This document shows positions 34,615-62,212 of a DNA stretch of 64,000 bases, in pieces. The translations under genes were made by a program, and so were the position numbers. How positions within the stretch are numbered: the stretch's first letter is position 1; each line of letters begins with the position of its first letter. The DNA comes from Saccostrea echinata (lineage: Eukaryota): the NCBI RefSeq assembly GCF_033153115.1, contig NW_026889830.1:1860001-1924000 (forward strand), in the 5' to 3' direction. Under the pieces are notes generated by a model. It was given only the letters and a program-made list of their open reading frames with translations, was not told where the DNA came from and searched no databases.

Positions 34615-34980
34615 ATTATACTTTCATGTAAATTAGTTGAATCTGATTCGTCGAGAAACATTTGTTAAAAAACACTATTACCCGCTGAATGATGAAGCCA
34701 CGCCCTCCAGCATAGCAACAGTCAACATTGCTTGGCGACGGGTGATATTCCAAAAAAAAAGTGACTGCGCAGAATTTATGCGCGCAAGGTTCACTGTTAT
34801 ATGTATTTTTTATAAAACATTCAGTATAACATAATAAATATTGCATGTAGTTGAGTGTAACATTGAAAAATTTTCACCCCTCGAAAACCATTGTCAACCT
34901 CAGCTGCGCCTCGGTTGACAATGGTTTTCTTGGGGTGAAAATTTTCAATGTTACACTCAACTACATGCAATATTTATATA
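34615..34980. mobile_element. Hairpin-ended non-autonomous element (Crypton-like, tentative)
   Basis: Starts attata...tctgattcgtcgag. Ends in a near-perfect palindrome of about 140 bp (34835..34977). No TSD seen. Confidence 0.55.
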
Positions 34981-37385
34981 AGAATGTACCTCCCTGGTAA
35001 TATACTTTATGTTCTGTGTAAATGAAATATACAAAGGAAAAGTTCAAGGAATAAAGAATTAATCGAAGATGTTTACAAACATACACTGTACCTGCATTTT
35101 ATGCCATCATAGGCATGAACTTGGACAGACCCTGGAAAAACAACCAATTAGAATCGTTGTTGGTATAAGCAGCCAATAAGAATCGTGATAGGAGTTTCCT
35201 AACATGAAGAGAAACTGCTCGGGAGTGAGGAGAGATGTACAGCTGATAATGGGAGAAAATTATATATAAAAACTAGAAATTTGACCAATATAGCTCACTC
35301 GAGCCCGTAACTCAAATAATGAGCTATTAAAGTTATGCAAGAATCTACAATTCTGAAATAAAAAAAATATATTCGTTTACGTTGTAACCTCTTTACCACT
35401 GCAGTTATGTAAGCATTCTTTCTTGGTCTCTTCTAAAACACATTGTAGGAAAATAACTTCAATTAAAAGATCGTGAACAGTTATATTGTACTTGGTTTAA
35501 GTACTGGAAAGAAAATTACAAACTAACATGAAATTAGTTTTAAAGGTACCTCAGGGAGACTCAAAAAGGTTTGTCAACGAACCACAGAGAAATATCCTGG
35601 AAATCAAAGCGAATGTGAAAAGAGATAGTAGAATGCACGAACTAAAATGTATTTGATAGATTTACTTCCCCCGAAAAGTTGAAAACTGTAAGTACAAGTC
35701 ATAGCCCACTCAGCGCATGTAAACGAGTGTAATTTTTAACTGCTAAGGATTCATGCATTATACGTTGATATTCCTGCATAGATGTTCCAGGGATGTTGCA
35801 GGAATTTAGTACTAAAAATTCTGCAATACAGGGTCTAGTATGAAACGTTGGTTTCCGTTTTCATTCATTTTAATTCCTTGCACATCTTTGCTGTAATCCA
35901 GATATCGATTCTTTGAGGATAAAGAATATATGCCAAGTGCTCTGTATAAAATAAGCAGATTTTCGTACATCCAACTAGCAAGACATTTCATGCCCAAAAG
36001 AATATGTATCTAGATGAGAAATAATTTTATCTGAGACAAAAGGATAGAGGGGACGATGACTTGTAAATACTCGTCATTTATTAAATGATCGTCATTTATA
36101 TGTTTAATCATGCAGCTGTTTTATGATTCTTATATATTTTCTTTATAGGAGGTTCCTACACTAATCTTTCTTTTTTTTCGATTGAATAGATAAAAAACCA
36201 AAAAACCACACAATGGGAAAAAGTTGCTCATTGCTAATAACTATTTAAAGGCTTATCATAAATACATATTGGTTGATTGATAATTACTTAATGCCCAATG
36301 CTTATTGCTTAATGCAATGTCATGAGGAATGTGCAAAGACAATTAAAAGCTGAAAATAAGGCAAGTAACAGAAGAGCAATAAGCTATTTCTATCAAGAAA
36401 TTGGCAATTAGTACACGTCATTAGGCAGTAAGCAATTGGACTAAGCAGATGACAATAAGTGACTGGCAATAGGCAGAAAGGAACTAATTGGCAAAATCAA
36501 TTAAGCTTCGTTAATAGTCTTGGAGAATATCCACAGTTGGGATGATGACACAAGTGCACAAATATGTGAGCAGTGAAATGTATTATTCTCTGCTGAAATT
36601 TGTTTTACTTTGGGGAAAATGATGTTATGGATTATTATGTTCTTTGAATTGCTAAACGTAAGGAAGACACACACAACATGTAAGAAATCCTTCAAGGGAG
36701 ATTTTAAGACACATGCTTGTATCATCCTGGTTTTTCAGTAGCTCCCGATAGGACACCAGGGCTGTACATGTACATAGCAGCTTCATACGCTTATCAAAAA
36801 GTTTGTGAACTGGCCAAATTCCATCAGTTCGATTCTAATCATTATAAGACTATGTTAAAAAAATCTTTTAAAAATCCCTACGAAAAATAAGACAAAACAC
36901 TCATGAAAACAGGGATAAAAATTTATTTATCAAATGATTTTCATCAAAATATATAAAAAGGATTCATGATAAAAAAAAATGACGAAGATATGATTAAAAA
37001 CAAACACGTACAATAAAAATCAAATTAAAAAAAGAAAGAAAACTGATCTCATTCTTTGGTGTCAACATAATCATCTGAATCATTAAAAATAAATATAAAC
37101 ATAAAAAATGACATGATTGTAACAGATTGTTGGCCCTGTAGACAGGCACAAACACAATAGCATCAAAGGTCCATTTATATTGCACTTTTAATAAAGCGGA
37201 AGCACAGCTTGTGGCCGCCATCAGACATTTTAAATCTGTAAAAAAGAAAAACAAAATACATGTAAAAATTATTTTAATTGGAGTAATCACATAAAGAAAA
37301 AGCTTACTCTTGTTAGAATCTTTAATGCCCAAATATTAATATTATCTTCCAGAAGAAACATGCACTCACTTTTCTCATGATCTAG

Positions 37386-37520
37386 TTAATAAGCATGTTT
37401 GGAAGAACCACGCACATTGCTGGTTTGTGCTAGTTGCCATGCTGTCCATTTTGGTTCCGAATACTTGAACATCTGCCATTTGCGAGTGTGATTAAACTTA
37501 ACTCTCTCCAACCACTCATG
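37386..37520 (-). CDS. Orphan gene, coding exon 7 (HEWLERVKFNHTRKWQMFKYSEPKWTAWQLAQTSNVRGSSKHAY*)
   Basis: Acceptor tttatttcAG, phase 0, TAA at 37388-37386. A GTGAGT donor follows at 37369 and a UTR acceptor at 37236. Confidence 0.6.
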   Translation of the reverse strand, partial: HEWLERVKFNHTRKWQMFKYSEPKWTAWQLAQTSNVRGSSKHAY

Positions 37521-37627
37521 CTGAAATAAAGAAATTTTCATCGTTTTTTAAAAATTCTCAATGAATAAAAAATTAATATAAATGAATACTACCTGTGTAT
37601 CAAAAAGCTTTCAGTTGGTTGACTCAC

Positions 37628-37690
37628 CAGATAAGAAGGGTACTTCATTTTGTGAGCATCTTTGGAATCAATTTCTCGATTCTTTTCATT
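37628..37690 (-). CDS. Orphan gene, coding exon 6 (NEKNREIDSKDAHKMKYPSYL)
   Basis: ttttctAG acceptor, GTGAGT donor, 63 nt, open. Confidence 0.6.
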
Positions 37691-59550: not shown

Positions 59551-59558
59551 ACTATTAA

Positions 59559-60212
59559 AGAGATGGGTGAACATGACAAGCGATAAGCCTATAGTGTGAC
59601 AAACATGAAGATGAAAAATTAAATTTCAATTATATCAAAATTTTCCTTGATATTTCGTCTAACATTAAAATATACTTTATGTAAAATCTCTACAATTTGC
59701 AAAAATCCCTCAAAGATTGACATTATTTGCCTGTGAAATATAAGACACACACTAAAGCAGGCAAAAAGAGTCATTTTCGCATACTATAACACTATTTTTC
59801 GATATGAGTGGGTCTTCGCTCCACCTTTTTGAAAGTTAATTCTCAAAGTTTGCATAAAAATATACATTTTTTGGTTACCAAAAATATGGAGCAATGACTC
59901 ACACTATACCTTAAAAATATACTTTTATGACATAACATTTGCATTTTTTCGAGAAATACTTGAAGTCCATGATTTAAATGCCACTGTTCGTCAGGACTTG
60001 TGTAGTGTTCGAACCCCACGAATACCACATTAATTTTTTAATAAAAGAATAAATTTTTCCGAGAAAATTTTCCTCAGAAAAGTTTTGTTTATCACAATTT
60101 CATAAATTTCAATAATGAGAACTTTACTCTAAATATTAAATTCACAAACTGAACATGATTTTTATATTTCTGAAGCTATAGGCTTTCTGCACGCTATGTT
60201 CGCCCATCTCCT
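59559..60212. mobile_element. Kolobok-like non-autonomous element
   Basis: TTAA|AGAGATGGGTGAACAT ... ATGTTCGCCCATCTCCT|TTTA. Confidence 0.55.
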
Positions 60213-62055
60213 TTTAGAGTACTTGTGTGTAGAATCAGAGGGATTTTTAACAAAGTTATTTTGTTGATGACCAATCACAAGTATATTAAAATTTCCGAGT
60301 TCCATTTTATTGAAGAAGCAGTTGTCGATGATATCAAAAAGCCTAGTTTTTCATTTACAATTGGTTTACATTTATATTGGTTGTATAAATCGTATAAAAG
60401 TCATAAGTTTACATGAGCTAACCATGGTTAAGCATTTGCATAAACTGGCTCCGTAAACTAAAAGTTCTAGTTTATCAAATCAAAAAATATACATAGGTCT
60501 TTGTGTAATATGTTTTACTTTGTTTAGTTACAGTATACTATATGTGTTATTGGAAGCCTCATTAATAGCGCTGGAAAAAATGAAATTACAGTGAATAAGA
60601 AATTCTTATCTTTATCGTAATACCGCTCTGTAAATGATTACCGTATATATTCTAACTTCAATTAGATAAATTGCAATACATAAAATTCTTCTGTGAAAAC
60701 GAACTTCTATTTTGTAATGTTTCTCATGCACGAAGATAAATGACATTAAATCTAAGTGGGAAGGTAAAAAGAGTATCTTTTCTCAATGTTCGTAAAGAGG
60801 ATTACTCAATTTAACAAGTTAACTTGCAGAGAAAACATCATAAGAGCATTTTGCTGAACATTCTCAAATATTAATCCTATGATTGGCAAATATTGACTGA
60901 GAACTGTCTCAAAATGGCACCGTACGTATTAAAAGACGAGAGTTTACACAGGTCGACCATCTGAAGAGATGGGTCCCTTTCACGATCGACGATATTCTTC
61001 AAGATTTCATCTTACCAAGAGGGATTATGTAAAGCCGAGGATATACAAACATCAAATATTGAAGTTAATTCAAAGCTGTTTTGAGTTTCATGCTTTCTTA
61101 ATCAATTATGTGATATGTTGACTATGAAGTAAGATTTGTTGACAGATACTCTTAAATAGAACCCAGTTTTGTAAAGGAAAGGGTATGAAGTCTTCGGCAT
61201 GAAAATGAAGATTGAGACACTAATTCTTTACCTCCTTCCAAAATTAAATGGATATTGGATTTTTTTCATTGTGCATCGTCTAATTTTTTTTGTCCAGTTA
61301 TATAAAAATTTTGGTATCTATGGAGTTAATTGGCAAGTTTACCATGAAATTAAGCAGTTTTAAACATCCATATTCCAGGATATGTAACTAATAAATGCTT
61401 AGATGGATTTTATTACGTTTTATTTGGATACTAACATTCACGTAGAACCAAGGATAAATACGACCAAATCTCGAGCACTCTAACCTGCCGTAGCTGTACA
61501 CAAAGGAGAAAGCCCCCTCCACTTTCTCTGTTTGCAAATCAGGAAATTTGGTACAATCCAAAAGATAACCGTAATCGTAATTTTTATTAAATTTTAAATA
61601 TATCCCCTCAGACTTGACTTTAACTTACGGTAACAAACTGTATACAAGCTTAGACAAGAATGCTGTGCCAATTTTTAAAGGATGCGTATACAGCATTACG
61701 AGATATTTTAAAATATAAGTTTATCTCATTATCTGCTAGTAAACGATAATTCTTAGATCTTGCTTGCAATTGCAAACGTTTAGTTCATGTCTATTTTGCC
61801 ATCATCAAGCCTTAGTTGCTGAATAAAACTGCAACCAATTGCTTAATATTTACATCCACTGAATATTATTTCCTTTTTTTCATATAAAAACCATTGCCGT
61901 TAATCACTCAATAAACAACACTAAGCAAGTCACCAGCATAGATTTCTTAAGCAATGGCTGTTCCATCAATTATGCATACAATGACATACACATCTATAAT
62001 ACAATATTTAACATATTTAATTTACTTTTTAATTTTCTTTAGAAAAATATAAATA

Positions 62056-62212
62056 TAAACAATTAATGTATTTCTTTGTTAGTACGGGAATTAACGTCGC
62101 AGCAATTGCAGAAAAAATTCACATAACCCGCTTACGCGGGTTATGTATTTTTTCTGCTACAGCTGCGACATTAATTCCCGAACTAACAACCAAAGAAAGC
62201 ATTTTATTGTTT
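62056..62212. repeat. Palindrome of about 155 bp (hairpin-ended element type)
   Basis: tttctttgttagt.cgggaattaa.gtcgcagc...cataacccgc-ttac-gcgggttatg...gctgcgac.ttaattcccg.actaac..aaagaaa. Confidence 0.75.

What the first reader, a model, noticed from the sequence alone, without database searches (positions are those of the whole stretch)
34835..62212. Four unrelated giant hairpins all capped by a GCGAAGC-type DNA mini-hairpin motif
Seen: palindromes of about 140-155 bp at 34835..34977, 39736..39885, 42672..42825 and 62056..62212 have unrelated stems but related apices. On the minus strand these read GGCGCAGCT, GGCAAAGCC, GCGAAGC and GCGTAAGC. Established: d(GCGAAGC) and GNA/GNNA loops form exceptionally stable ssDNA mini-hairpins. 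At least three hairpins sit at one end of a longer element, and the one insertion whose target can be reconstructed (42261..42826) has no TSD. Inference: a shared mobilisation system acting on a hairpin or cruciform, such as a tyrosine recombinase/Crypton-like or ssDNA-intermediate route, which recognises the apex structure rather than the stem sequence.
Basis: partly seen in the sequence, partly recalled or inferred. Interest (0 to 1): 0.7.

Follow-up and report, generated by a model that had tools for sequence, protein, structure and literature searches.

The report
Crypton transposons with strand-specific hairpin ends
The four hairpins are each the end of a different high-copy jumping element; three of the four share both ends with tyrosine-recombinase (Crypton) transposons in the same genome, and their layout and insertion footprints suggest that they likely move as one folded DNA strand, as bacterial integron cassettes and the cholera phage do.

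Summary
The four hairpins are real, and a fifth lies at 34391-34515. Each is the terminal palindrome of a distinct non-autonomous DNA element (A-E). B, C and D share both termini with DUF3504 tyrosine-recombinase (CryptonA-type) elements in this genome; no partner was found for A or E. They insert without target duplication into a spaced palindromic site, 3 bp off its axis, always on the same side (118 copies). Beside the hairpin base each carries a mirror copy of its own end-to-end junction, 2 nt shorter in the spacer. Tandem GA/GA mismatches and GNA or T loops sit on the strand that reads hairpin-first, whichever way the gene points (17 of 18 tandem mismatches, none TC/TC). In Cre geometry (recalled) that is also the only strand whose cut matches the crossover. 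Inferred, untested: a single-stranded circle folds a recombination site and integrates by one strand exchange plus replication. This scan reported the same design on other genomes.

The parts
34613..34980 (+). Element A, non-autonomous, 368 bp, hairpin at the 3' end; inserted inside element E
   Evidence: 2721 first-look candidates, 40 scored, 95-97% identity; ends from 30 copies; empty site in E copies. No autonomous partner found.
34824..34832 (+). A: internal inverted copy (a') of the 5' terminus, abutting the hairpin base
34834..34977 (-). A: terminal palindrome; apex 34900-34912 reads GA-stem-GCA-stem-GA on the minus (hairpin-first) strand in the family (this copy has one change)
34383..35210 (-).
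   Evidence: No autonomous partner shown; its apex class occurs in autonomous family L184/L185.
39730..40455 (-). Element B, internal-deletion derivative of a 2.2-kb autonomous DUF3504 element (L180, L181, L182, L186)
   Evidence: 174 candidates; B 1-104 is 86-92% identical to the partner's 5' end, B 104-730 matches its 3' end with the same apex
39736..39886 (+). B: terminal palindrome; apex 39804-39816 is GA-GGC-TTT-GCC-GA on the plus (hairpin-first) strand
39891..39898 (-). B: internal inverted copy of the element's far terminus (40443-40455)
42274..42828 (+). Element C, 555 bp, inserted bluntly in the arm of a TIR element; both termini shared with YR element L244
   Evidence: 1442 candidates; ends; empty site; partner: C 1-125 91%, C 298-476 83%, last 25 bp 92%; Pfam
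42658..42670 (+). C: 13-bp perfect inverted copy of the 5' terminus at the hairpin base
42672..42825 (-). C: terminal palindrome; loop 42749-42751, GCGAAGC on the minus (hairpin-first) strand
61846..62214 (+). Element D, 369 bp; both termini shared with 2.77-kb YR elements L235, L236, L241
   Evidence: 1922 candidates; D 1-61 80-83% and D 204-373 88-89% to L235/L236, same apex; Pfam
62050..62056 (+). D: internal inverted copy of the 5' terminus at the hairpin base
62056..62212 (-). D: terminal palindrome; loop 62132-62135, C-GTAA-G on the minus (hairpin-first) strand

Best explanation
The hairpins are the termini of non-autonomous DNA transposons, three of which share both ends with DUF3504 tyrosine-recombinase (CryptonA-type) elements of this genome, and they likely transpose as a folded single DNA strand. 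Shown: layout 5'-a...body...a'-spacer-b...apex...b'-3'; blunt insertion into X-N8-X' between N7 and N8; a'-spacer-b complementary to the end-to-end junction but 2 nt shorter; fold-stabilising features on the hairpin-first strand only. Inferred: (1) the recombinase exchanges only the hairpin-first strand at the two ends and releases it as a circle, while the other strand keeps the donor copy, which would allow copy-number gain; (2) in the circle b/b' and a/a' pair and rebuild a two-armed recombination site around an 8x6-nt bubble; (3) this site exchanges one strand with a double-stranded target and host replication or repair resolves the junction. The GA/GA and GNA/T-loop motifs would make the right strand fold fast and stably; they would not be the site that is cut. 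Identity as Crypton derivatives about 0.95; mechanism about 0.6.
For: Partners: B, C and D, with DUF3504 and Phage_integrase matches; model of B's partner is Cre-like (pLDDT 88; best Z 20.6, rmsd 4.0, 303 aligned to Cre). 31 of 40 chosen DUF3504 loci have a giant hairpin at one element end (2 uncertain, 7 not); 0 of 24 other Phage_integrase loci have one within 1.5 kb. Target logos TA-N8-TA (A, C, weaker D) and (GAG)A-N8-TCT(C) (B); flank duplication at shuffled level; last 7 nt of the element constant in 108 of 118 copies while the left six target bases vary; the alternative junction pattern in 2 of 118, both head-to-tail stacks. 24 clean blunt empty sites. Mirror copy 2 nt shorter in 4 of 4 window families; a' abuts the hairpin in 10 autonomous families. 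In 29 hairpins oriented by position only: tandem mismatches GA/GA 14, AA/GA 3, other 1, TC/TC 0; purine-purine 51 vs pyrimidine-pyrimidine 11; G.T 24 vs A.C 5; DNA energy favours that strand in 26 of 29. The bias follows the hairpin, not the gene: it is the sense strand in the clade with an upstream hairpin and the antisense strand in the others. Circular single strands are predicted to pair a/a'. B's target base next to the cut is T in 28 of 30, matching the mirror copy and not the junction, and the T is present in empty sites.
Against: No intermediate or activity was observed. The link from crossover position to cut strand uses Cre/Xer geometry recalled from general knowledge. A double-stranded circle that needs homology only next to one cut, or directed repair of a heteroduplex, could leave the same footprint. 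In A, C and D the target base next to the cut matches the junction (A: 15, 20, 15) more often than the mirror copy (T: 10, 10, 12). The 29 hairpins belong to three related clades, so the counts are not independent; energy differences are small (often under 3 kcal/mol) and RNA parameters give the same bias (25 of 29). For B the whole-circle energy favours the other strand. One of 29 apices (L238) reads the other way. One empty site (A, L036) shows 3 extra nt. F8 and F11 did not give 2 nt with my end guesses, and ends of families with 2-4 copies were chosen by me. Some intact-looking YR elements (L205, L206, L209) show no hairpin; only 12 of 40 further, mostly broken loci do. In other organisms' contigs only 7 of 34 loci with enough flank show one, and two read the other way. 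B's partner has Thr at the first catalytic His; C's partner is a single frameshifted copy with a part-deleted hairpin. No partner for A or E.
Confidence: 0.6

Rival explanations
1. Classical Crypton model: excision as a double-stranded circle and reinsertion by two strand exchanges. The palindrome and mirror site are accessory (extra recombinase-binding or regulatory site, or cruciform) and the one-sided crossover comes from homology testing or biased repair.
For: It is the published model (PMC3212892; PMC13465315); clean excisions of an active CryptonF were seen (PMC9977147); Starship circles integrate (10.64898/2026.09.21.753150). In A, C, D the target base beside the cut more often matches the junction.
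Against: Gives no reason for strand-specific GA/GA and G.T bias, for a mirror copy consistently 2 nt shorter, for B's T preference, or for the near absence of the second junction pattern (2 of 118). Conservative excision does not readily explain over a thousand candidate copies.
Confidence: 0.22
2. Strand-biased copy-out: one strand is circularised, then the hairpin apex is read by a host primase or polymerase to make a double-stranded circle, which integrates. This is the version in which the apex is recognised, closest to the first reader's idea.
For: Mini-hairpins occur at phage single-strand priming sites and N4 promoters (PMC13037366); bacterial SEs copy out one strand and accumulate nicked double-stranded circles (PMC10214605); apex motifs are enriched and never flipped (0 of 118).
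Against: Loop sequence is not conserved across families; does not explain the mirror copy of the junction; SEs carry a donor-derived 6-bp footprint, whereas here the spacer at the hairpin end is constant.
Confidence: 0.12
3. The fold acts in RNA (a DIRS-like internal complementary region or an RNA-processing signal).
For: RNA parameters favour the same strand in 25 of 29; G.T bias; DIRS elements have an internal complementary region (PMC13465315).
Against: The favoured strand is antisense to the gene in two clades and sense in the third; the 2.1-2.9-kb partners show only a YR frame in the ORF scans and Pfam; C-GNA-G is far more stable in DNA than the RNA counterparts (shown there for GCGAAAGC).
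Confidence: 0.04
4. Ordinary TIR MITEs, or Helitron/Helentron derivatives moved by an HUH enzyme.
For: Sub-terminal inverted repeat plus terminal hairpin and no TSD resemble Helentron-type elements (recalled).
Against: No terminal inverted repeats at both ends, no TSD; both termini of B, C, D flank YR genes. No HUH search was run, so this stays formally open for A and E.
Confidence: 0.02

Closest known systems
CryptonA DNA transposons and their non-autonomous derivatives (Kojima and Jurka 2011, PMC3212892: parts 1-2 of 7 and term passages read; Kojima 2018, PMC5753468: passages; PMC13465315: passages)
   Same: DUF3504-type tyrosine recombinase as the only detected gene, no TIRs, no TSD, abundant internal-deletion derivatives, reported from molluscs and other animals.
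   Different: The 2011 paper states that no terminal repeats were found in animal Cryptons, and the words hairpin and palindrome do not occur in the main text of the three papers. Here there is a 130-200-bp terminal palindrome, a sub-terminal mirror of the junction, a spaced target consensus and strand-specific folding. No 4-6-bp terminal direct repeat as in fungal CryptonF/S. Repbase/Dfam entries, supplements and Kojima's review (not held) were not seen and may describe the palindromes.
CTXphi attP(+) integrated by XerC/D (PMC3089051, passages)
   Same: Two inverted att-like sites with unequal spacers on one strand fold into a hairpin of about 150 bp that unmasks the site; one strand pair is exchanged; replication or repair resolves it.
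   Different: CTXphi uses host recombinases, a fixed dif target and rolling-circle ssDNA; these elements encode their own recombinase, use a loose target, and no source of ssDNA other than excision is evident. For Cryptons the route is inferred only.
Integron attC/IntI (PMC4792948, passages)
   Same: Little sequence conservation but conserved palindromic structure; one strand favoured by pairing imperfections; replicative resolution; cassette-like stacking.
   Different: attC selectivity comes from extrahelical bases read by the I2 domain; here the asymmetry is GA/GA tandems and loops, and the recombinase model is closest to Cre (IntI4 Z 15.6, rmsd 4.9, 266 aligned). One of the two site copies is formed only on joining the element's ends.
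Strand-biased circularising integrative elements of Vibrio (PMC10214605, passages)
   Same: Tyrosine-recombinase copy-out using one strand.
   Different: Double-stranded nicked circles, donor-derived 6-bp footprint, four core genes; 'hairpin' does not occur in that text.
d(GCGAAGC) mini-hairpins and CGAG blocks (PMC13037366, PMC10085684, passages)
   Same: C-GNA-G loops and tandem sheared G.A pairs in Y-GA-R context are the motifs found on the hairpin-first strand.
   Different: Only C has the exact heptamer; B and E use T loops.

Membership tests
CryptonA (DUF3504) transposon, non-autonomous derivative | Both termini shared with an element that encodes a DUF3504 tyrosine recombinase | tested here: met
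   B, C and D; Pfam
CryptonA (DUF3504) transposon, non-autonomous derivative | Same, for families A and E | tested here: inconclusive
   No partner among the YR loci fetched; same layout and apex class as YR families L214 and L184; only part of 309 DUF3504 candidates was examined
CryptonA (DUF3504) transposon, non-autonomous derivative | Partner keeps the catalytic residues R-H-R-Y | tested here: inconclusive
   C and D partners have HxxR, H and Y, with frameshifts in some copies; B's partner has an open 469-aa frame with Thr in place of the first His; activity not tested
CryptonA (DUF3504) transposon, non-autonomous derivative | No terminal inverted repeats and no target-site duplication | tested here: met
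CryptonA (DUF3504) transposon, non-autonomous derivative | Placement in CryptonA rather than CryptonV or another named group by phylogeny with Repbase references | not testable with these tools
   No Repbase/Dfam here; tree has only this genome's proteins (three clades; B's partner in the clade scoring highest on DUF3504, C and D partners in a second clade found)
Fungal CryptonF/CryptonS | 4-6-bp terminal direct repeats and GCR1_C or C-terminal domain | tested here: not met
   No constant direct repeat at both ends; no such Pfam match
TIR MITE | Inverted repeats at both termini plus fixed-length TSD | tested here: not met
Folded-ssDNA recombination systems (CTXphi attP, integron attC): works-like | One strand can fold a two-armed site around an unpaired spacer | tested here: met
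   Sequence complementarity and predicted circular fold; prediction only
Folded-ssDNA recombination systems (CTXphi attP, integron attC): works-like | Strand-specific imperfections favour one strand | tested here: met
   weaker in other organisms' contigs
Folded-ssDNA recombination systems (CTXphi attP, integron attC): works-like | Single strand exchange with replicative resolution, shown biochemically | not testable with these tools
   Only the genomic footprint is consistent
DIRS/Ngaro YR retrotransposons | Reverse transcriptase gene | tested here: not met
   Partner elements of 2.2-2.8 kb show only YR frames
Helitron/Helentron | Mobilised by a Rep/HUH-helicase element with the same ends | not tested
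   No HUH search; YR partners found for B, C, D instead

The most novel reading that the evidence does not exclude
Animal CryptonA elements are eukaryotic transposons that copy out one DNA strand as a circle, fold it into their own recombination site and integrate it by a single strand exchange, a CTXphi/integron-type reaction run by a self-encoded Cre-like enzyme; the sheared G.A pairs and GNA loops are a selected structural code that marks the active strand.
Probability: 0.55. Interest if true: 0.82.

Novelty: new variant of a known kind. Interest (0 to 1): 0.62.

Why it matters
How animal Cryptons move has not been shown in the papers read here, which report no terminal repeats for them and note that an active fungal-type Crypton gains copies in an unexplained way. 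This finding gives exact ends, a target consensus, cut-strand prediction and matched enzyme-substrate pairs (a 469-aa single-frame recombinase with a 0.7-kb derivative), so the question becomes testable with oligonucleotides and one purified protein. If right, folded-ssDNA site-specific integration, known from bacteria, operates in animal nuclei, explains copy gain and head-to-tail stacks, and gives a rule for classifying abundant unassigned hairpin repeats.

Tried and rejected
Flip/flop apices as in rolling-hairpin or telomere-resolvase replication: 0 of 118 flipped; protelomerases rank low in the fold search (Z 7.5 and below). TSD: the 7-bp repeat around C in the window is a target that resembles the element's own start, not a duplication. 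Homology between stems: none by BLAST, faint traces only. Partner for A: not in loci; the A-like stretch next to a YR in L345 is a separate insertion in opposite orientation. No YR in the window itself. Viral contigs: no relative. First search for C's empty site hit a different nested repeat. Unbiased sample was only 200 kb with 5 giant hairpins, 2 of Crypton type: too small alone, so one search added flanks, which are enriched for Crypton stacks. Literature: five Crypton-centred searches with hairpin, palindrome, single-stranded, sub-terminal or mechanism terms plus searches listed no paper that, by title or abstract start, describes this end structure; only listings were seen for most hits.

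
Full report
Context. The window is G000:C81:1860001-1924000 of a 923-Mb, AT-rich genome. It holds two copies of a sulfotransferase gene on the minus strand and no tyrosine recombinase. Hairpins A, B, C and E lie between the two gene copies, D upstream of the second.

Observation. The four palindromes are present. A gapped scan found them plus a fifth at 34391-34515, scores 31-63; a 200-kb Markov control gave nothing at 15 or more. Each belongs to a separate dispersed family: first-look candidates 2721 (A), 174 (B), 1442 (C), 1922 (D), 116 (E), 40 scored per search, so these are not copy numbers. 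I aligned the best 30 loci of A-D and 25 of E; two D loci were dropped because an anchor was not found, leaving 118 copies. These are the copies most like the window's, hence a young, biased sample. In every family the palindrome is at one end. Window coordinates: A 34613-34980 (+), B 39730-40455 (-), C 42274-42828 (+), D 61846-62214 (+); E about 34383-35210 (-), split by A.

What moves them. PF12012 (DUF3504) gave 150 scored matches of 309 candidates. Of 40 loci I chose for long open frames, 31 have a giant hairpin at one end of the element, 2 are uncertain and 7 show none in the scan (counted by eye; one of the 7, L181, has it by BLAST). Of 40 further, mostly broken loci, 12 do. Of 30 Phage_integrase loci, the 24 that are not in the DUF3504 or lists have none within 1.5 kb (I presume DIRS/Ngaro but did not test it, and their ends may lie further out). 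B is an internal-deletion derivative of a 2.2-kb element present in at least four copies 96-99% identical, with a 469-aa frame matching DUF3504 and Phage_integrase. D shares both ends and the apex with three 2.77-kb copies (97-98% identical); C shares both ends with one frameshifted copy whose hairpin is partly deleted. No partner was found for A or E. A model of B's partner (30-sequence alignment, pLDDT 88) matches Cre best; its first catalytic His is Thr.

Insertion footprint. Flanks define a spaced palindromic target: T 24/30, A 27/30 ... T 29/30, A 23/30 for A; 24, 29, 26, 28 of 30 for C; weaker for D; (GAG)A-N8-TCT(C) for B. The element enters between N7 and N8, 3 bp from the axis, always toward the same side. 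Flank duplication matches shuffled pairs. Joining flanks in a script found usable empty homologues for 23 copies among DNA already fetched, all blunt by eye, one further copy (A, L036) with 3 extra nt, and the rest without a usable hit; the window's C site is blunt in 5 of 6 host copies, the sixth aligning only through the host's other arm. The last 7 nt are constant in 108 of 118 copies; the six target bases on the other side vary (26-29 distinct strings per family). An element's own left junction is again a target, which explains head-to-tail stacks (L041, L046, L048, L185).

End architecture. Directly inside the hairpin base lies an inverted copy of the far terminus (9-14 bp). Together with the start of the left arm it is complementary to the junction that joining the two ends would make, and 2 nt shorter in the spacer in A, B, C and D, whose ends are data-defined. 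The same adjacency holds in 10 autonomous families; with my end guesses 7 of 9 autonomous families tested gave 2 nt, F11 gave 1 and F8 5. Folding each element as a single-stranded DNA circle predicts the a/a' arm on the hairpin-first strand in 4 of 4; total energy favours that strand in A, C, D but not B.

Strand asymmetry. I oriented 29 hairpins by where the element body lies, not by motif. On the hairpin-first strand tandem stem mismatches are GA/GA 14, AA/GA 3, other 1, TC/TC 0; G.T 24 vs A.C 5; 25 of 29 apices show GA...GA or C-GNA/GNNA-G, three are degenerate and one reads the other way. In the clade with the hairpin upstream of the gene this is the sense strand, in the others the antisense strand, so the bias is not tied to mRNA. 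The families are related, so the counts overstate independence. C-GNA-G loops and tandem sheared G.A pairs are known DNA-stabilising motifs (PMC13037366 and PMC10085684, passages); that C-TT-G loops are too is recalled. Among incidental long hairpins, 7 of 18 families have these apices against 0.38 expected. In 80 metagenome contigs with related recombinases, 7 of 34 with enough downstream sequence have a hairpin; GA/GA 4, TC/TC 1, two apices reversed: partial support only, from short-read assemblies.

Mechanism. Tyrosine recombinases bind two inverted arms around a 6-8-bp spacer (PMC3212892). In Cre, as I recall, the two cuts lie 3 bp either side of the axis with 5' overhangs. On that geometry a crossover at N7|N8 is the cut on the hairpin-first strand. 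So the strand that is built to fold is the only strand whose cut appears in the genome. Exchange of both strands across a heterologous spacer should leave the other pattern in a large share of copies; it appears in 2 of 118, both tandem stacks. This is the logic of CTXphi, where two inverted dif-like sites fold a 150-bp hairpin and one strand pair is exchanged (PMC3089051), and of integron attC sites (PMC4792948). B's preference for T beside the cut matches the mirror copy (28 of 30), which favours the folded site; A, C and D do not show this preference. All steps after the anatomy are inference.

Crypton, no TSD and ssDNA: supported. Apex recognition: unsupported, since the cut and half-sites are at the base and each family has its own enzyme. 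The apices form two classes and B was read on the wrong strand.

Novelty. Membership is of a known kind. The three Crypton papers searched by term do not mention hairpins or palindromes in their main text, and one states that animal Cryptons have no terminal repeats; an active CryptonF gained copies in a way called complex (PMC9977147, passages); Starship circles were shown in 2026 without mention of single strands (passages); Crypton-A is polymorphic in an oyster (10.64898/2026.02.10.705023, passages). Repbase, Dfam, supplements and Kojima's review (not held) were not seen and may already describe the palindromes. My reading was noted; the later look-up showed that this scan reached the same reading on other genomes, which is not independent evidence. 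Verdict: real, a new variant of a known kind, interest 0.62.

Noticed in passing
window 41327-43163: TIR element with 344-bp arms (93% complementary) hosting C and the end of another repeat (41961-42162, 327 candidates); 143 candidates genome-wide; superfamily not determined.
   Followed up: partly
window 14144-14866, 19462-20028, 46050-46688, 53663-54280 (minus): Two tandem copies of a sulfotransferase gene.
   Followed up: partly
window 47333-49496 and 13194-13758: 149-bp (308-bp higher-order) tandem array and 25-bp tandem array.
   Followed up: no
window 38030-39334 (minus): Three open frames of 115-140 aa that look like exons, no Pfam match.
   Followed up: no
window 26317-28785: 100-bp inverted arms 2.3 kb apart, followed by a 20/43-bp repeat at 28881-29032.
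   Followed up: no
L183:5889-9069: Stack of five Crypton-type hairpins of three families behind an autonomous element.
   Followed up: partly
L203, L208, L327, L330, L331, L333, L339, L341: A third recombinase clade carries the hairpin upstream of the gene, so the gene is flipped relative to the end design.
   Followed up: partly
L180:4391-5797: Young multi-copy recombinase with Thr replacing the first catalytic His.
   Followed up: no
L187:4150-5562: DUF3504 frame lacking the C-terminal catalytic motifs and any hairpin; possibly a domesticated gene.
   Followed up: no
L192, L244, L195, L349: Copies with deletions through the hairpin, as expected of unstable palindromes.
   Followed up: no
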